A DNA stretch of 64,000 nt from Acidimicrobiia bacterium (GTDB lineage Bacteria; Actinomycetota; Acidimicrobiia; Spongiisociales; ZC4RG35): NCBI GenBank assembly GCA_040878345.1, contig JBBDML010000015.1:20882-84881 (forward strand), written 5' to 3'. Positions 2,297-57,226 of the stretch are shown here, one piece after another; positions within the stretch are counted from its first letter, which is position 1, and every line of letters starts with the position of its first letter. The notes beneath the pieces are model-generated. The model saw only the letters and a program-made list of their open reading frames with translations. It was not told the origin of the DNA and did not search any database. The position numbers and the translations under genes were made by a program.

Positions 2297-2563
2297 TCAG
2301 TCACGCGGGTAGCGGGTGACTCCTTCGGCGTGCTTGGTGGTGAACAGCTCCAGGACTTCTCCCGGTTCGGCGTGACGCCCGATTTGATGCTTGGAGAAAA
2401 GGGTCTCCCCGTCGACGGTCACGTCGAACACACCCTTGGCACCGGTGGTGAAGGTCAGGGACTCGATGATGTGCTGGTAGTTGACCAGCAGGTCACTGGC
2501 CGTGCCCACGGCACGGGCCGAATAGTCTCAAGGGACGCAGTAGGTGATGTCGATCACGTGCAT
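2297..2563 (-). CDS. SelW/Rdx-family selenoprotein (CxxU redox motif), in-frame UGA = Sec at codon 12
   Basis: The ORF track lists only 2297..2509 because of an in-frame TGA at 2528-2530. Reading the minus strand upstream of that TGA gives, in the same frame, ATG(2563) H V I D I T Y C V P UGA D Y S A R A V G T A S D L L V N Y Q H I I E S L... A GGAGGA Shine-Dalgarno sits 6 nt before the ATG. The motif ITYCVPU matches the Rdx/SelW hallmark (e.g. YCGAUGY). A hairpin (2498..2519) begins 8 nt after the UGA. Confidence 0.6.
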
Positions 2564-4128: not shown

Positions 4129-4641
4129 ATGAGGAAGGTATTCACCATTCTGGCCGTGGCCGGTTTCGTTGCGGCGATGATGCCCAGTGCCCTCGCTGGG
4201 GGCATGGCGATAACCGCCTTCGACTCGCTGCCGGACGAGTTCGAGGCCGGCCGGACCTACACCTTGAGCTACACGATCCTCCAACACGGCGTGACCCCGG
4301 TCGACAACGCCAACTCGATGCTTGCCTTCACCAGCGTCGATAGCGGTCAGACCATCACCTTCCAAGCAACCGCCACCGGGGACCCGGGTCGTTACACGGT
4401 CGACGTGACGGTGCCCGCCGAGGGAGCCTGGGAGATGCAGGTCACCCAGGGGCCTTTCGAGGCACACGACTTCGGTGTCATCGAGATCTCACCAGCTGCT
4501 GACAATCCGGTGGCGGGCCTGTCGTGGGCCAATGTCCTCATGGTGGTCCTGCCCCTGGCCGCGGTGGCCGCCGCCTGGTACACGGTGCGGGAGCTGAGGC
4601 GGGTTCGCCAGGTTGGCGAGGTACCCACCGAGATCGGCTGA
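4129..4641 (+). CDS. Hypothetical exported protein with C-terminal membrane anchor
   Basis: ATG at 4129 gives MRKVFTILAVAGFVAAMMPSALAGG, a signal peptide. A C-terminal TM segment (LMVVLPLAAVAAAWY) follows. The first 74 codons of ORF 3907..4641 look noncoding. Confidence 0.45.
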   Translation: MRKVFTILAVAGFVAAMMPSALAGGMAITAFDSLPDEFEAGRTYTLSYTILQHGVTPVDNANSMLAFTSVDSGQTITFQATATGDPGRYTVDVTVPAEGAWEMQVTQGPFEAHDFGVIEISPAADNPVAGLSWANVLMVVLPLAAVAAAWYTVRELRRVRQVGEVPTEIG

Positions 4642-5773: not shown

Positions 5774-5817
5774 GGTGGGTCCCGTGGGAATCGAACCCAC
5801 AACCTTCGGGTTAAAAG
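5774..5817 (-). repeat. Partial tRNA-Lys copy (3' half: anticodon loop to 3' end); 44-bp direct repeat of 7841..7884
   Basis: Exact 44/44 match to the 3' portion of the intact tRNA-Lys at 7843..7915. Identity stops inside the anticodon loop. There is no matching 5' half, so this is not a tRNA gene. Confidence 0.8.
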
Positions 5818-6290
5818 TGTGCCGAACGTTGTTTCCTTCCGTGTCCACGGGTCGCGTTCTGCGAGGCAGTGTCGGCATTTTGGTATCGATATAGCACCCA
5901 TTCGCCTCCTCCGGTGCGGTTCTGTTTCCTCTACGGCGTTTGCAGATCGGTTTGCACATCATGAGCCAAGCTCCCGCAGGCGTTGGAGTTCACATCGACT
6001 GCCGCGCCTCGACCGGAGTCACGTCAGACGCAGACAAAATGAACCAGTCCCATTCTGCGGTCAGCAAAGCGGGGTGACCTCTCAGCGGTCTGGTCATCAC
6101 CGGGATGGGGCTGTTCTGGCGTGAGATCCTGGGGCTCATCGGCAGCCTGTTCCGCAAGTACGCGGACGAGGCAGCACAACTCAGCGCCAGCATGGTCTGC
6201 GCCGGATCGCGTAATGTCTCCGAGCTGGAAAGGAGGGGATCCGACCCGTGGTCGGCCCCCTCGGCGCGCGACGCTAAGGATCGGTTACCG

Positions 6291-7715
6291 ATGTCCCACA
6301 TGATGGTGAATTCCGAGGCGCAGCCGGTGCTCCTCCTGCTAGTCGACATCAGTGGCTACACCCGCTTCATGGTGTCGCATGAGAGGGAGCTGCGACACAG
6401 CCAGATGATCATTGGCGAGCTGCTGGAGAGCCTGATACGCCAAGTGGATGTCCCGCTGCGCATCTCCAATATCGAAGGCGACGCCCTGTTGCTCTATGCG
6501 GTGAAGAGCGGCGAGGAGGAGGTGTGGCGTCGCCGCAGCGGGAACCTGGTGGAGCGGCTGATTGTCATGTTCCGGGTCTTTGCCGAGCGTCTGTTGGAGA
6601 TCGGCGCGTACAGCGTGTGCAAGTGCGGCGCTTGCGCCACGGTAGGCAACCTCGAGCTGAAGGTCATAGCCCACTCCGGGGAAGCCCTTCTCACTCAGGT
6701 GGGGGAGTACCCGAGCTTGTCGGGGCCTGACGTCATCACCGTCCACCGCCTCGCCAAGAATTCGGTGCCGGAGGACGAGTACATCTTGATGACGGAGGCC
6801 GCCTATCTCGACCTCCAGCTTCCTGAGGGCGCAACCGTGCGGGAGAGTGTTGAGACTTACGACACCGGGACGTTCAAGACCTACATCCACCTCCCTGAGT
6901 ACGATGTCGACTACGACGAGGAAGCCATTAGGGCACATTTCTCCGACGACAACGCCGCGGTGATGATCCTGCGCGATGAGATCGCCCGCGAGTACACCGA
7001 CGTGGCGACCGTCCCAGACCGGGGCTACCACTTCAATACCGGCCGGGCAGCCCTGGCGATCAACGGCTATGAGGAGCAGTGGCTGGAGGGGATCCCAGAG
7101 TCGGCCATCGCCTCGTTCTCCGGAATGGGGAATCCGTTCTCGATGGGTATGCCGGTCGAAGGGGAGTATGTGGTGGACGTCGGATCCGGAGCCGGCCTGG
7201 ACGCCATGATCGCGGCCCGGGCGGTGGGGCGGGCCGGTTATGTAATTGGAGTGGACATGACCGAGGCGATGCTGGAGAAGGCCAACGCCGGAAAAGCCGA
7301 GTTCGGTCTCGACCAGGTGGAGTTCCGTCACGGCTACGTCGAGTCACTCCCAATACCGGATGGTTGGGCCGATCTGGTGATATCCAACGGAGTCATCAAC
7401 CTCTCCCCCCAGAAGGACAGGGCCTTCAAGGAGATCTCTCGGGGACTGCGACCGGGGGGTCGGCTCCAGATCGCCGACATCACTGTGGAGAAGGAGATCC
7501 CCGAGGGGGCCAGGCGCGACATCGACTTGTGGACGAACTGAATAGCCGGGGCGCTGCTGGAAGCAGCGCTCGAGGCCACGGTCGTGGCCGCCGGATTTGA
7601 GGGATTCGAGATCACTTCGAAAGAGGACGTGTTCAAAGGTGCCCCCCGGCCCAGCAAGGAGGTGGCCTATTTCGGCACACAAGGCATCAACTTCCGCGCC
7701 TACAAGCCCGGATAG
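6291..7715 (+). CDS. Putative selenoprotein: unknown N-terminal domain fused to ArsM-like SAM-dependent methyltransferase; in-frame UGA (7539..7541) read as Sec
   Basis: The ORF track stops at TGA 7539-7541 (...ADITVEKEIPEGARRDIDLWTN*). The same frame continues for 57 more codons (IAGALLEAALEATVVAAGFEGFEITSKEDVFKGAPRPSKEVAYFGTQGINFRAYKPG) to TAG 7713-7715. The motif LWTN-U-IAGAL aligns with ArsM LW(A/T)GCIAGAL, so the UGA sits at the conserved As(III)-binding Cys. The upstream MTase core GEYVVDVGSGAGLDA...VISNGVINLSPQKDRAFKEISRGLRPGGRLQIADI matches ArsM (VVSNCVINLSPDK). A hairpin GCGCUGCUGGAAGCAGCGC at 7551..7569 begins 9 nt after the UGA. The start was chosen at ATG 6291 (MSHMMVNSEAQPVLLLLVDISGYTRF), which has an AAGGA 11 nt upstream. 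The ORF could begin as early as 6105. Confidence 0.55.
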
Positions 7716-7842
7716 CGGGGAAGTGTGTTTGCGGCGTGGGCGGCACTCACGGGAGTTAATTCTCAGACGGATAAGCGCGGACAAGAGCAACGATGACGAA
7801 GACGCCCACCACAAGGTCGAGCCACATTTGACTTTCCTGAGG

Positions 7843-7915
7843 TGGGTCCCGTGGGAATCGAACCCACAACCTTCGGGTTAAAAGCCCGCTGCTCTACCAA
7901 TTGAGCTAGAGACCC
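7843..7915 (-). tRNA. tRNA-Lys (anticodon UUU)
   Basis: Minus-strand sequence GGGTCTCTAGCTCAATTGGTAGAGCAGCGGGCTTTTAACCCGAAGGTTGTGGGTTCGATTCCCACGGGACCCA folds as a cloverleaf. The acceptor stem is GGGTCTC/GGGACCC, with a D-arm and a T-arm GTGGG-TTCGATT-CCCAC. The anticodon loop is CTTTTAA. A genomic CC follows the discriminator base. Confidence 0.85.
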
Positions 7916-40944: not shown

Positions 40945-42078
40945 TTGGCCGGAGTCACGGAGCGTGAGGTGATCGCCGACCCGATAGCGGATCTGAGAAG
41001 CACCACCGGTTCACTGATCTCGGTTTATGCCCAGCGCCCCGGCCCTGGCGGGTTCAGCGCACTCCTCGCCGACCTGCTCCGGCCCATCCGGGACAGGGCC
41101 GATCACATGGACCGGAACGTCGCCAAGGCGGTCAGGTTCGATGCCGACCGCATCCATCGGCTCGGTGACCGTTTCGAGATGGGCTCGGCCCCCGGGTACG
41201 CGGTCTTCGCCTCGGAGAGCGACGGCATATTCGTGATCGAGCAGCTCGCCCATGAGGTAGCCAGCGTGGCGATGATCGGGCCCAGGCCCTACATGCGCCC
41301 GTTGCGCGCTGCCCCGAGGGGTCTGAGGTCCGGGGTTCTAGTCGCCGACCACAGCCTGGCCCGGGCTTTCATCGCTTCCGGTGGTGTCATCGCCGAGATC
41401 GGCGAGCCGCTCCGGGCCGATGTCGGCAAGCCCAACTATGGGGGTTTCGCCGGCTACGACGAGCACGTGGTGCGCTCACGGGCCGGCGAGGCCTCTGCCC
41501 GGATCTGGAAGATGGCCGGCCGGTTCCTCCTCGACGCCCACCAGGCCCGGCACCTCGACTACGTCGCCCTTGGTGGCCAGGGCGAGACCATCGACGAGCT
41601 GGCCCGCTCCCTCCATCCCTACCTGGCCAGGCTCCCCAGGGTCGACTTCCCGGCCAACCCGGGAGGGGTCAGTCTTCAGGCGATCCGGGCCGAGCTGACC
41701 GCATACGACGAGGAGATCCGTCGCAGCCGTCAGGGCGACCTGGCCGGAAGGTTGTGTGACGTGGCGAGGAGCGGGGGCAACGCGGTTCTCGGTCTGGGTG
41801 CCACTCTGGACGCGGCCAACACCCAGGCCATAGACACCCTGGTGGTGGCGGGCGACTTCGCAAGGAGTGGCTCGATGTGCCAGGTCTGCTCACGTCTCAC
41901 CCGTGCCGGCGGCCCATGCCAGGTGTGCGGGTCGCCGATGTTCGAGATCGACGACGTGGTGGCGGCGACGATGGAGGTGACCATCAACTCGGGCGGCAAC
42001 GTCCACCAGATCGAGGTCGCCTCCCCCCTCGACATCGATGGGATCGGGGCCCTGACCCGCTTCCCGGTGGCTCTCTAG
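40945..42078 (+). CDS. eRF1-domain (bacterial archaeo-eukaryotic release factor-like, Rv2629-type) protein with C-terminal zinc ribbon
   Basis: Overall layout resembles the Rv2629/baeRF family. C-terminal CQVCS...CQVCGS zinc-ribbon. From memory only, not checked. Confidence 0.4.
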   Translation: MAGVTEREVIADPIADLRSTTGSLISVYAQRPGPGGFSALLADLLRPIRDRADHMDRNVAKAVRFDADRIHRLGDRFEMGSAPGYAVFASESDGIFVIEQLAHEVASVAMIGPRPYMRPLRAAPRGLRSGVLVADHSLARAFIASGGVIAEIGEPLRADVGKPNYGGFAGYDEHVVRSRAGEASARIWKMAGRFLLDAHQARHLDYVALGGQGETIDELARSLHPYLARLPRVDFPANPGGVSLQAIRAELTAYDEEIRRSRQGDLAGRLCDVARSGGNAVLGLGATLDAANTQAIDTLVVAGDFARSGSMCQVCSRLTRAGGPCQVCGSPMFEIDDVVAATMEVTINSGGNVHQIEVASPLDIDGIGALTRFPVAL

Positions 42079-55777: not shown

Positions 55778-56800
55778 GTGTCCGAAGTCACCCTCACCCA
55801 GTTCAGCCATGGTGCCGGCTGCGGCTGCAAGCTGGGCCCCGCCGAGCTCAACGAGGTGCTGGGCCCGATAAAAGGGCATCCGGCGACCATCCACCCGGAC
55901 CTCCTTGTGGGGTTGGGGACCAGCGACGATGCCGGTGTCTACTCATTGGGCGATGGCCGGGCCCTGGTCCAGACAGTCGATATCTTCACCCCAGTGGTCA
56001 ACTCACCACACGATTGGGGCCGGATCGCCGCAGCCAACGCCCTCTCCGACATCTACGCCATGGGGGCCACCCCATTGACCGCCCTCCAGTACCTGGCATG
56101 GCCCCGTGACCTGCTCCCCTTTGGGACCGCAACCGAGGTGGTGTCCGGAGGGCTTGGCGTGATGCAGAGCGCCGGGTGCACGGTGGTGGGGGGTCATTCC
56201 ATCGACTCGCCGGAGCCCACCTACGGGTTCGCCGTCACGGGGATCTCTGAGACCGGGAAGATCCTCACCAACGCCGGTGCCCGGCCCGGAGACGCCCTGG
56301 TCCTGACCAAGCCGCTGGGGACCGGGATCATCACCACCGCCATCAAGCGCGGGAAGTGCCCGCCGGAGGTCGAGCGGGCGGCGATCGAGACCATGACCAC
56401 CCTCAATGCCGTGGCGGCTTCCCATCTCCATGAGCACGCGGCGTCGGCGGTCACCGACGTCACCGGGTTCGGTTTGCTGGGGCATCTCCACGAGATGTGC
56501 GTCGCTTCGGGAGTGGGTGCGGAGATCGATCTGGCCTCGGTCCCGATGCTGAAGGGGGCCATCGAGCTCCTGGCTCTAGGGATGTGGGCCGGTGGGTCAC
56601 AGAGGAACCTCGAATCGACCCTTCCCCACGTCGACAGCAGCCACGAGTTGGGGTCTCTCCAGCCACTCTTCGACGCCCAGACCTCTGGGGGCCTGCTGGT
56701 GGCCCTCCCGGCGGAGTCGGCCGCTGGATATGCCGCATCGGTGGCTGGGGCGGTGATGATCGGGAGGCTCACTGCCGACCACAGGATGAGGGTGGTGTGA
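55778..56800 (+). CDS. selD: Selenide, water dikinase (selenophosphate synthetase), Cys-type
   Basis: The N-terminus LTQFSHGAGCGCKLGP matches SelD LTQYSHGAGCGCKI. AIR-synthase-related domains are present throughout. The catalytic position is Cys, not Sec. Confidence 0.85.
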   Translation: MSEVTLTQFSHGAGCGCKLGPAELNEVLGPIKGHPATIHPDLLVGLGTSDDAGVYSLGDGRALVQTVDIFTPVVNSPHDWGRIAAANALSDIYAMGATPLTALQYLAWPRDLLPFGTATEVVSGGLGVMQSAGCTVVGGHSIDSPEPTYGFAVTGISETGKILTNAGARPGDALVLTKPLGTGIITTAIKRGKCPPEVERAAIETMTTLNAVAASHLHEHAASAVTDVTGFGLLGHLHEMCVASGVGAEIDLASVPMLKGAIELLALGMWAGGSQRNLESTLPHVDSSHELGSLQPLFDAQTSGGLLVALPAESAAGYAASVAGAVMIGRLTADHRMRVV

Positions 56801-57226
56801 GTGGGACCCGAAGAGCGGCTGGAGGCCATTGCCGGCGCCTTGTCAATCCCGACGGCGAGACGGCACATCTTCCTGTGCGCAGACCAGACCAACCCGAAAT
56901 GCGCCCCTCGCGAGAAGACCCACGAGTTGTGGGCCCACTTGAAGAGTCGTCTCAAGCTGCTCGAGGTGACCACCGCGCCGCCGGCGTGGCAGGGAGACAT
57001 GTCGGTGAACCCCGACCCGGTCGCAGTGGGGGATGGCACCGTGCTCCGGTCAAAGGTGGACTGTCTCCGCATCTGCGAGCAGGGCTGCATCGCGGTCGTC
57101 TACCCCGAAGGCACCTGGTATGCGGGACTCGACCGCGAGAAGCTGGACCGGATCATCGATGAGCATCTGATCGGCGGGGTGCCGGTTGGCGAACTGGTCT
57201 TTGCCCGGGGAGACTTGTCGCCATGA
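56801..57226 (+). CDS. Thioredoxin-like [2Fe-2S] ferredoxin-family protein
   Basis: Cys pattern C26, C34, CLRIC, C95. The GTG start directly abuts the selD stop (GTGA). Confidence 0.45.
   Translation: MGPEERLEAIAGALSIPTARRHIFLCADQTNPKCAPREKTHELWAHLKSRLKLLEVTTAPPAWQGDMSVNPDPVAVGDGTVLRSKVDCLRICEQGCIAVVYPEGTWYAGLDREKLDRIIDEHLIGGVPVGELVFARGDLSP

What the first reader, a model, noticed from the sequence alone, without database searches (positions are those of the whole stretch)
6291..7715. Candidate selenocysteine-containing ArsM-like methyltransferase: the UGA sits exactly at the conserved arsenic-binding Cys and a hairpin follows 9 nt later
The 478-aa ORF (6105..7541) ends at TGA. The same frame then encodes 57 more residues (IAGALLEAALEATVVAAGFEGFEITSKEDVFKGAPRPSKEVAYFGTQGINFRAYKPG) to a TAG at 7713-7715. 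Across the junction the protein reads DIDLWTN-[UGA]-IAGAL. ArsM arsenite methyltransferases read L(W/Y)(A/T)GCIAGAL at this point, so the stop codon occupies the conserved third As(III)-binding cysteine. A perfect 7-bp-stem hairpin GCGCUGC-UGGAA-GCAGCGC (7551..7569) starts 9 nt after the UGA, which is the geometry of a bacterial SECIS. The second ArsM cysteine (VVSNCVINL) is Gly here (VISNGVINL). This protein therefore has at most one chalcogen ligand where ArsM has three, which argues for a different chemistry than the classical three-Cys As(III) site. The MTase is fused to a ~270-aa N-terminal domain of unknown function that begins LLLLVDISGYTRF. I recall this as a DUF2652-like actinobacterial domain, but I have not verified that. 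selD and a second UGA-containing gene (SelW-like) lie in the same 64 kb, so the organism plausibly decodes UGA as Sec.
Basis: partly seen in the sequence, partly recalled or inferred. Interest (0 to 1): 0.85.

Follow-up and report, generated by a model that had tools for sequence, protein, structure and literature searches.

The report
Selenocysteine methyltransferase fused to cyclase-like domain
This gene very probably encodes a 474-residue selenoprotein, a cyclase-like domain fused to an arsenic-methyltransferase-like enzyme whose one remaining active-site cysteine is replaced by selenocysteine; the enzyme family is a known selenoprotein family, but this fusion is cut short at the UGA in public annotation.

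Summary
The frame starting at ATG 6291 runs to TGA 7539-7541 and stays open for 57 more codons to TAG 7713-7715.

All 50 orthologous loci I recovered have TGA at this codon, never TAA, TAG or a Cys codon. All complete copies keep the extension, which is under purifying selection.

A 9-bp hairpin (7549-7571, loop UGGAA) lies 16 nt after the UGA. It meets the published bacterial SECIS constraints and keeps pairing through compensatory changes.

The UGA aligns with the third As(III)-binding Cys of ArsM (Cys224 of CmArsM). The other two Cys positions are Met279 and Gly367.

selD and a SelW-like CxxU gene with its own hairpin lie in the same window. selA, selB and tRNA-Sec are not in these 64 kb.

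The N-terminal DUF2652 domain has a class III nucleotidyl-cyclase fold.

Sec-containing ArsM-like methyltransferases with this UxxG motif have been known since 2007. What looks new is the cyclase-like fusion, seen here only in Sec form and truncated in public annotation, and its place in a distinct single-Cys/Sec subfamily.

The substrate is unknown.

The parts
6275..6279 (+). Shine-Dalgarno-like AAGGA, 11 nt before the ATG at 6291
   Evidence: Read directly from the sequence. Orthologs start at this Met, and nucleotide homology with the closest relative L001 begins at 6277.
6291..7538 (+). Coding sequence before the Sec codon: residues 1-416
   Evidence: Translation. 120 database homologs of about 416 aa end at exactly this point.
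6291..6905 (+). N-terminal DUF2652 / class III nucleotidyl-cyclase-fold domain, about residues 1-205
6618..6635 (+). Invariant CxCxxC motif (Cys110, Cys112, Cys115) inside the DUF2652 domain
   Evidence: Invariant in fused and standalone DUF2652 proteins alike. Its role is unknown.
6963..7712 (+). ArsM-like class I SAM methyltransferase domain, about residues 225-474, including the Sec codon and the 57-residue extension
   Evidence: Pfam Methyltransf_31/25/11. NCBIfam arsenite methyltransferase PRK11873 scores 212.9 bits, below its 263 cutoff. PDB sequence matches to CrArsM and CmArsM at about E = 1e-26. Foldseek's best hits are ArsM and AS3MT structures.
7125..7127 (+). Met279 codon, at the position of the first As(III)-binding Cys of ArsM (CmArsM Cys72, YGCG)
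   Evidence: Alignments.
7389..7391 (+). Gly367 codon, at the position of the second As(III)-binding Cys of ArsM (CmArsM Cys174, SNCV)
   Evidence: Alignments. Invariant Gly in the orthologs.
7539..7541 (+). In-frame UGA, predicted to encode Sec417, at the position of the third As(III)-binding Cys (CmArsM Cys224; UxxG motif)
   Evidence: TGA in 50 of 50 orthologous loci and in distant fusions and standalone relatives. It aligns with Cys in the Cys-form relatives and in classical ArsM.
7542..7715 (+). Coding sequence after the Sec codon: 57 codons plus TAG stop at 7713-7715
   Evidence: Conserved in all complete loci. dN/dS is mostly 0.09-0.45. Nucleotide homology to relatives ends at 7708-7718.
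7549..7571 (+). Predicted bacterial SECIS hairpin: 9-bp stem, apical loop UGGAA at 7558-7562, 16 nt after the UGA
   Evidence: Folds, covariation, conservation in distant and standalone relatives with compensatory changes, and the published constraints.
7574..7589 (+). Second conserved 6-bp hairpin (GGCCAC/GUGGCC) just after the SECIS stem; its role is uncertain
   Evidence: 98% of cells are paired, but no pair changes on both sides, so it may only reflect the conserved coding sequence.

Best explanation
The gene at 6291-7715 (+) encodes one 474-residue selenoprotein.

**Recoding.** During translation the UGA at 7539-7541 is read as selenocysteine rather than stop. The mRNA hairpin at 7549-7571 acts as a bacterial SECIS element and would recruit SelB carrying Sec-tRNA(Sec) (inferred).

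**Domains (shown).** There are two. The N-terminal DUF2652 domain has the fold of a class III nucleotidyl cyclase. The C-terminal domain is a SAM-dependent methyltransferase of the arsenite-methyltransferase (ArsM/AS3MT) lineage.

**Active site.** Sec417 occupies the position of the ArsM cysteine that holds As(III) next to the SAM methyl group (shown). The other two ArsM cysteines are absent (shown). The enzyme therefore belongs to a distinct single-Cys/Sec subfamily marked by the motifs HFxTGR, FAGxGNPF, SNG and LWT-[C/U]-IAG.

**Most likely mechanism (inferred).** The selenolate is the single catalytic ligand or nucleophile. It captures a thiophilic substrate, either a metalloid or chalcogen species or an organo-arsenical-type compound, and presents it to SAM for methyl transfer.

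**Role of the cyclase-like domain (speculative).** It probably dimerises the protein. It may also bind or convert a nucleotide as a regulatory or coupled activity.
For: **In-frame UGA and the frame after it**
- TGA occurs at this codon in 50 of 50 loci, from Acidimicrobiia MAGs (GTDB) and unassigned metagenome contigs, down to 68% nucleotide identity.
- Fusions at 46% and 40% protein identity also carry it, one from a 48% GC organism.
- The extension is conserved at protein level, with dN/dS similar to the upstream codons. Homology to relatives ends at the TAG.
- The most conserved extension residues (IAGALLEA) follow the UGA directly, with no start codon available.

**TGA is a normal stop here.** It ends 30 of 37 confident long ORFs in the window, so the genetic code is not reassigned.

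**SECIS fit.** The hairpin meets all four published bacterial SECIS constraints:
- a 5-nt loop of the form N1-G-G-N-N2;
- a 9-bp upper stem;
- 16-nt spacing from the UGA;
- a free energy of -16.6 kcal/mol.

**Covariation**
- Pair 7553/7567 is G-C in 23 sequences, U-A in 14 and G-U in 1, and never unpaired. One side of this change is synonymous and the other changes Ala to Glu.
- Standalone relatives keep the hairpin although their peptide there differs (LPCAGWE instead of LLEAALE).

**Sec/Cys pair.** Cys-form relatives have Cys in this column.

**Selenium context.** selD and a SelW-like CxxU gene with its own hairpin are in the window.

**Thiophilic substrate.** Cys-form members of the subfamily are fused to TusA, to MerC plus a BufA2 metallophore, or to AhpD plus a classical ArsM.

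**Precedent.** Sec-ArsM with the UxxG motif is catalogued.
Against: - No selA, selB or tRNA-Sec is present in the 64 kb. The rest of the genome could not be read.
- No Rfam SECIS family matched, although Rfam may hold no suitable model for this hairpin.
- Much of the hairpin lies in a strongly conserved peptide. Part of its conservation is therefore coding constraint, and the main compensatory pair may reflect only one or a few evolutionary events.
- The substrate is unknown. Neighbouring genes are not conserved and no ars operon is nearby.
- The cyclase-like domain lacks the canonical purine-specifying Lys (Asn60 here). By motif alignment it also lacks the transition-state Asn, so cyclase activity is doubtful (inference).
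- The structural model lacks the last 58 residues, including Sec, and no coordinates were available to measure distances between the domains.
Confidence: 0.8

Rival explanations
1. The UGA is a real stop. The functional product is the 416-residue protein as annotated, and the downstream 57 codons are untranslated or made separately as a small peptide.
For: Public annotation calls the truncated ORF ('DUF2652 domain-containing protein'). No tRNA-Sec, selA or selB is seen in the window.
Against: - The downstream frame is open and under purifying selection in all complete loci.
- Its most conserved residues follow the UGA directly and have no start codon. The first in-frame start is GTG 7584, 14 codons in.
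- Only TGA is ever used, never TAA or TAG, in 50 of 50 loci.
- Truncation would remove the conserved catalytic Cys/Sec and the C-terminal strands that align with ArsM residues 225-279.
Confidence: 0.04
2. The UGA is read through, but not as selenocysteine. It would be read by near-cognate decoding (Trp, Cys or Gly) or by some other local recoding, with the hairpin acting only as a read-through stimulator.
For: Some gene callers translate the homologous codon as W (P0271 and P0285), though that is an artefact of the code table used. The Sec machinery cannot be shown for this genome.
Against: - The hairpin fits the bacterial SECIS geometry and loop pattern.
- The homologous column is Cys in the Cys forms, which is the classic Sec/Cys signature.
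- selD and a second CxxU UGA gene with a hairpin are present.
- The same position is an accepted Sec site in ArsM-type selenoproteins.
Confidence: 0.06
3. A rival for function only: the protein is a true arsenite methyltransferase. Sec417, helped by small-molecule thiols or by the CxCxxC cysteines of the fused domain, would rebuild an As(III) site, so the chemistry would be classical ArsM chemistry.
For: - ArsM and AS3MT are the closest solved structures and NCBIfam families.
- From memory: a two-Cys ArsM has been reported to be active, and CxCxxC has the spacing of the As(III) site of R773 ArsR.
- The AlphaFold pTM of 0.80 suggests a defined arrangement of the two domains.
Against: - Two of the three defining cysteines are missing.
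- The score is below the NCBIfam ArsM cutoff.
- CxCxxC is a general DUF2652 feature, also present in proteins with no methyltransferase.
- No ars genes lie nearby in any locus examined.
- A separate motif, HFxTGR, replaces the Cys-rich N-terminus of ArsM.
Confidence: 0.2

Closest known systems
Arsenite S-adenosylmethyltransferase selenoproteins (ArsM/AS3MT family, UxxG motif; Fomenko et al. 2007 as cited in PMC13188914; 41 genes counted in PMC5029168)
   Same: The same methyltransferase lineage, with Sec at the same column (the third As-binding Cys, U-I-A-G), and a SECIS hairpin directly after the UGA inside the coding sequence.
   Different: This protein lacks the other two ArsM cysteines (Met279 and Gly367). 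It has HFxTGR in place of the Cys-rich N-terminus, carries an N-terminal cyclase-fold domain, and scores below the NCBIfam ArsM cutoff (212.9 against 263).
NCBIfam fusion selenoproteins: ArsM/AhpD (NF041537), ArsM/DUF2284 (NF041536) and methyltransferase/UXPK-star (NF047649), from Haft and Tolstoy 2025 as listed in PMC13188914
   Same: An ArsM-type methyltransferase with Sec in UxxG, fused to a second domain. The models match the methyltransferase region at 192-211 bits.
   Different: All three scores are far below the model cutoffs of 460-575 bits. The partner domain here is DUF2652, not AhpD, DUF2284 or UXPK-star. There is one Sec rather than two or three. I could not read the primary paper.
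Standalone single-Cys/Sec methyltransferases of about 260 aa, called as about 200 aa when truncated at the Sec codon (for example P0137, P0301, P0308; loci L061, L062, L064)
   Same: The same subfamily motifs, the same TGA, the same extension and a hairpin at the same distance. They are 45-60% identical to the methyltransferase half of this protein.
   Different: They have no DUF2652 domain. Cys forms of the standalone type exist (P0163, P0180), whereas no Cys form of the fusion was seen.
DUF2652 (PF10851), predicted class III nucleotide-cyclase-like proteins (PMC4886424)
   Same: [quoted passage not shown] The fold is confirmed here.
   Different: The proteins described in that paper are single-domain, with one polyketide-cyclase fusion. 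A methyltransferase fusion is not mentioned there. The Lys four residues before the second Asp, present in standalone DUF2652 proteins, is variable in the Acidimicrobiia fusions (Asn60 here).

Membership tests
Bacterial selenoprotein gene (UGA recoded through a bacterial SECIS) | In-frame UGA with a conserved, selected reading frame on both sides | tested here: met
   TGA in 50 of 50 loci. The extension has dN/dS mostly 0.09-0.45, like the upstream codons.
Bacterial selenoprotein gene (UGA recoded through a bacterial SECIS) | Stem-loop after the UGA meeting the bacterial SECIS model: 3-9 nt loop with G in its first two positions, 4-16 bp stem, 16-37 nt spacing, free energy of -7.5 kcal/mol or lower | tested here: met
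   Loop UGGAA, 9-bp stem, 16-nt spacing, -16.6 kcal/mol. Pairing is kept with compensatory changes.
Bacterial selenoprotein gene (UGA recoded through a bacterial SECIS) | Cys-containing homologs with Cys aligned to the UGA | tested here: met
   P0163, P0180, P0161, P0170 and P0270, and classical ArsM proteins, have Cys in this column. No Cys form of the DUF2652 fusion itself was found.
Bacterial selenoprotein gene (UGA recoded through a bacterial SECIS) | The genome encodes selD, selA, selB and tRNA-Sec | tested here: inconclusive
   selD is present at 55778-56800. No selA, selB or tRNA-Sec is in the 64-kb window. The rest of the genome was not available.
Bacterial selenoprotein gene (UGA recoded through a bacterial SECIS) | Selenium is physically incorporated into the protein | not testable with these tools
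   This needs 75Se labelling or mass spectrometry.
Arsenite methyltransferase (ArsM/AS3MT) | Class I SAM-methyltransferase fold with the ArsM-type sequence | tested here: met
Arsenite methyltransferase (ArsM/AS3MT) | Three conserved As(III)-binding cysteines (CmArsM Cys72, Cys174, Cys224) | tested here: not met
   Only the third is kept, as Sec417. Met279 and Gly367 replace the other two.
Arsenite methyltransferase (ArsM/AS3MT) | Score above the curated family threshold (NCBIfam NF008823, 263 bits) | tested here: not met
   212.9 bits.
Arsenite methyltransferase (ArsM/AS3MT) | As(III) methylation activity or linkage to an ars operon | tested here: not met
   No ars genes were seen near the gene in the window or in the related loci examined. 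Enzyme activity cannot be tested here.
Class III nucleotidyl cyclase | Cyclase-homology-domain fold | tested here: met
Class III nucleotidyl cyclase | Two metal-binding aspartates | tested here: met
   Asp19 (DISGYT) and Asp64 (EGDA) are invariant or nearly so. They align with ADMAGYS and TGDGM of cyclase 3mr7.
Class III nucleotidyl cyclase | Substrate-specifying Lys (or Glu), plus the transition-state Asn and Arg | tested here: not met
   The Lys position is Asn60 here and varies among fusions (N, S, R, A, G), although it is Lys in most standalone DUF2652 proteins. By motif alignment the Asn position is Ile149, while Arg153 is kept. The Asn and Arg assignment was made by eye and is an inference.

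The most novel reading that the evidence does not exclude
The fusion would be a new kind of selenoenzyme rather than an ArsM variant. A single active-site selenol would carry out SAM-dependent methylation of a substrate other than arsenite, for example selenium or tellurium species, mercury or another soft metal, or a persulfide or perselenide. This activity would be physically coupled to a cyclase-fold domain whose invariant CxCxxC loop binds a metal or metalloid. The protein would then sense its substrate and either produce a nucleotide signal or gate its own methyltransferase. The recurrent neighbouring cyclase/STAND/LuxR regulators would belong to the same circuit.
Probability: 0.12. Interest if true: 0.7.

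Novelty: new variant of a known kind. Interest (0 to 1): 0.42.

Why it matters
**Annotation.** Every database copy of this protein family that I saw is truncated at the Sec codon. About 120 close homologs are called as 416 aa, and hundreds of standalone relatives are called as about 200 aa. The catalytic residue and the last 57 residues are therefore missing from public protein sets.

**Biology.** A large group of Acidimicrobiia and other sediment bacteria keep a selenol as the only Cys-type residue left at the three ArsM As(III)-binding positions of this arsenic-methyltransferase-like enzyme. In one lineage the enzyme is welded to a cyclase-fold domain of unknown function.

**What it opens.** This gives a concrete handle on two questions: what single-Cys/Sec 'ArsM-like' enzymes methylate, and what DUF2652 does.

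**Limit.** The family is already known as a selenoprotein family, so the find is not a surprise in kind.

Tried and rejected
- **Rfam.** At gathering thresholds only tRNA-Lys was found. A permissive scan of 7480-7680 gave only chance hits and no SECIS family.
- **Structure of the full read-through protein.** A 46-sequence alignment gave pLDDT 90.8. That model lacks residues 417-474, and no coordinates were available.
- **Conserved gene neighbourhood.** None was found in 24 loci, apart from a recurrent cyclase/STAND/LuxR regulator in about a quarter of them. Three standalone relatives also had no ars or selenium neighbours.
- **selA, selB and tRNA-Sec.** Not found in the window.
- **Gene as a repeat-flanked cassette in general.** Rejected. 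Only the window and L004/L028 have flanking repeats. None of the other 26 loci tested has an exact flanking repeat above the 14 nt reached by shuffled controls.
- **L013.** This Logan contig has overlapping ends, but that is explained by the 44-nt repeat being longer than the assembler's k-mer. It is not evidence for a circular form.
- **Cys form of the fusion.** Not found among the top 150 representatives at 50% identity. The best Cys candidate, P0270, is cut by a contig end.
- **CxCxxC replacing the lost ArsM cysteines.** Downgraded, because the motif is general to DUF2652.
- **Primary literature.** The paper on the ArsM fusion selenoproteins (Haft and Tolstoy 2025) is not held.
Full report
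**1. The observation**

- The frame that starts at ATG 6291 runs for 416 codons to TGA 7539-7541. It then continues for 57 more codons to TAG 7713-7715.
- ATG 6291 is preceded by AAGGA 11 nt upstream, and it is where all orthologs start.
- Across the junction the protein reads DIDLWTN-UGA-IAGALLEAALE.
- The stem GCGCUGC/GCAGCGC with loop UGGAA is at 7551-7569. It extends to a 9-bp stem at 7549-7571 with a free energy of -16.6 kcal/mol.

**2. Is the UGA a conserved recoding site?**

The 120 best database homologs (68-100% identity) are all about 416 aa long. All end at DLWT[N/G/S], the same point.

I recovered the DNA of orthologs from GTDB genomes, which are Acidimicrobiia and related actinobacterial MAGs, and from metagenome and Logan assemblies.
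- In 50 of 50 loci that reach this point the codon is TGA. It is never TAA, TAG, TGC or TGT.
- Every complete copy continues in frame with a conserved extension, IAGALLEA[A/E]LEATVVAAGF..FGT.G.NF.A.KP.
- Over 54 aligned extension codons, dN/dS against the window is mostly 0.09-0.45. The 57 codons before the UGA give mostly 0.03-0.32.
- Nucleotide homology to the closest relative (L001, 91.7%) covers only 6277-7711, which is the coding sequence including the extension. The flanks are unrelated.
- Two distant fusions have the same TGA, extension and hairpin. They are 46% and 40% identical in protein, and one comes from a 48% GC organism.

TGA is otherwise the normal stop in this genome. It ends 30 of 37 confident long ORFs in the window, so the genetic code is not reassigned.

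**3. The hairpin**

The published bacterial SECIS model requires four things (PMC13188914). The hairpin meets each of them.

| Constraint | Required | Observed |
|---|---|---|
| Upper stem | 4-16 bp | 9 bp |
| Spacing from UGA to loop | 16-37 nt | 16 nt |
| Free energy | -7.5 kcal/mol or lower | -16.6 kcal/mol |

On 38 distinct orthologous sequences, 94% of the cells in this helix are paired.
- Pair 7553/7567 is G-C in 23 sequences, U-A in 14 and G-U in 1, and is never unpaired.
- One side of that change is a synonymous third-position change. The other side changes Ala to Glu.
- Shuffle and slide controls are clearly lower.

There are caveats. The sequences are related, and the region encodes a conserved peptide.

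More telling, standalone relatives keep a hairpin at the same distance with different stem bases (GCCCUGC/GCAGGGU), although their peptide there is different (LPCAGWE). L060 shows two further compensatory pairs.

Rfam has no matching family.

**4. Selenium context**

- selD, in its Cys form with GAGCGCK, is at 55778-56800.
- A SelW-like gene lies on the minus strand from 2563 to 2297. It has the motif C-V-P-UGA (CxxU) and a GC-rich hairpin with a GUG loop 18 nt after the UGA.
- No selA, selB or tRNA-Sec lies in these 64 kb. The rest of the genome could not be read.
- This is the main gap in the case.

**5. What the protein is**

Pfam finds DUF2652 at residues 41-164 and class I methyltransferase domains at residues 291-418.

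The best NCBIfam matches are below their cutoffs:

| Model | Score (bits) | Cutoff (bits) |
|---|---|---|
| Arsenite methyltransferase PRK11873 | 212.9 | 263 |
| ArsM/AhpD selenoprotein (NF041537) | 210.7 | 510 |
| Methyltransferase/UXPK-star selenoprotein (NF047649) | 195.2 | 460 |
| ArsM/DUF2284 selenoprotein (NF041536) | 192.2 | 575 |

The closest solved structures by sequence are ArsM proteins at about E = 1e-26. In those alignments the UGA falls on Cys224 of CmArsM (GECLGGAL). Cys174 (SNCV) is Gly367 here, and Cys72 (YGCG) is Met279.

An AlphaFold model of residues 1-416, built from a 46-sequence alignment, is confident (pLDDT 90.8, pTM 0.80).
- Its C-terminal half matches ArsM and AS3MT best (Foldseek E = 1e-10, 33-38% identity).
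- This agrees with the published prediction for DUF2652 (PMC4886424).

**6. A distinct single-Cys/Sec subfamily**

I aligned four groups: the fusions, standalone Sec forms, Cys forms and classical ArsM proteins. The alignment separates two groups.

| Feature | Classical ArsM | This subfamily |
|---|---|---|
| N-terminus | Cys-rich | HFxTGR |
| First Cys motif | LGCGNP | FAG[V/T/M]GNPF |
| Second Cys motif | SNCV | SNG[V/A] |
| Third Cys motif | W[S/A]GC[I]xGAL | LWTx-[C/U]-IAG |

- The standalone Sec form is very common. About 100 of the best 120 hits to the C-terminal 118 residues stop at this codon. Three of them that I checked have TGA, the extension and the hairpin.
- Cys forms of the standalone type exist (P0163, P0180).
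- Some Cys forms are fused to TusA, to MerC plus a BufA2 metallophore, or to AhpD plus a classical ArsM. These partners point to sulfur, selenium or soft-metal chemistry.
- No Cys form of the DUF2652 fusion was seen.

**7. The cyclase-like domain**

- Both metal-binding aspartates are conserved: Asp19 in DISGYT and Asp64 in EGDA.
- The Lys four residues before the second Asp is present in most standalone DUF2652 proteins. It is Asn60 here and varies among the fusions.
- By motif alignment the transition-state Asn is Ile149. Canonical cyclase activity is therefore doubtful.
- An invariant CxCxxC (residues 110-115) occurs in all DUF2652 proteins examined, with or without a methyltransferase. It is a feature of the domain and not a replacement for the lost ArsM cysteines.

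**8. Genomic context**

- Neighbouring genes are not conserved, and none relate to arsenic or selenium.
- A large cyclase/STAND/TPR or LuxR-type regulator lies next to the gene in about a quarter of the contexts.
- In the window the gene sits alone in a 2,067-bp interval. The interval is bracketed by a 44-nt exact repeat of the 3' end of tRNA-Lys.

**9. Verdict**

This is very probably a real selenoprotein gene. I put the probability of Sec recoding at about 0.85-0.9.

It belongs to the known class of ArsM-type selenoproteins with Sec in UxxG (PMC13188914; PMC5029168). It is a variant absent from the selenoprotein catalogues I could read:
- it is fused to a cyclase-fold domain;
- it has a single Cys-type (S/Se) residue, Sec417, at the three ArsM As(III)-binding positions;
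- it is truncated in public annotation.

It fails two defining ArsM tests, so I do not file it as an arsenite methyltransferase. The most likely mechanism is SAM-dependent methylation of a thiophilic substrate held by the selenolate. That is an inference and needs biochemistry.

Noticed in passing
window 5774-5817 and 7841-7884; tRNA-Lys(UUU) at 7841-7915 (-): A 44-nt exact direct repeat of the 3' end of tRNA-Lys brackets a 2,067-bp interval that holds only the selenoprotein gene and no integrase. This looks like the att sites of an integrated element. In the closest relative (L001) only the coding sequence is shared and the flanks differ.
   Followed up: partly
L004 (= L028) 4288-4308 and 5920-5940; tRNA-Ala at 4178-4252: In another MAG the orthologous gene is bracketed by a 21-nt exact direct repeat that starts 36 nt after a tRNA-Ala gene. 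None of the other 26 loci tested has an exact flanking repeat above the 14 nt reached by shuffled controls, so this is not a general feature.
   Followed up: partly
window 2297-2563 (-); UGA at 2528-2530; hairpin at 2498-2519: A SelW-like (Rdx-type) gene with an in-frame UGA in the motif C-V-P-U. A GC-rich hairpin with a GUG loop follows 18 nt after the UGA. This is a second probable selenoprotein gene in the window.
   Followed up: partly
window 55778-56800 (+): selD (selenophosphate synthetase) in its Cys form, with the N-terminal motif GAGCGCK. The 141-aa ORF directly downstream (56801-57226) has no Pfam match.
   Followed up: partly
L001 7046-9934, L024 5927-8800, L037 179-2899, L006 3669-4787, L059 1-2763, L062 1-316 and 7451-10123: Large class III cyclase/STAND (NB-ARC or AAA_16)/TPR or LuxR-type regulators lie next to the fusion gene or its standalone Sec relatives in about a quarter of the contexts. 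This looks like more than chance, but I did not quantify it against a genome background.
   Followed up: partly
window 6618-6635 (Cys110, Cys112, Cys115): An invariant CxCxxC motif lies in a loop of the DUF2652 cyclase-fold domain. It is also present in standalone DUF2652 proteins and in DUF2652-membrane fusions. From memory, the spacing matches the As(III)-binding site of the R773 ArsR repressor. Its function is unknown.
   Followed up: partly
window 6105-6290: Public annotation starts the gene at ATG 6105, giving 478 aa. Orthologs, the AAGGA at 6275-6279 and the limit of nucleotide homology all point to ATG 6291, so the annotated N-terminal 62 residues are probably not translated.
   Followed up: yes
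window 40945-42078 (+): An ORF with a weak Pfam match to a bacterial archaeo-eukaryotic release-factor-like family (baeRF family 10, 28.5 bits). I saw no link to the UGA recoding.
   Followed up: no
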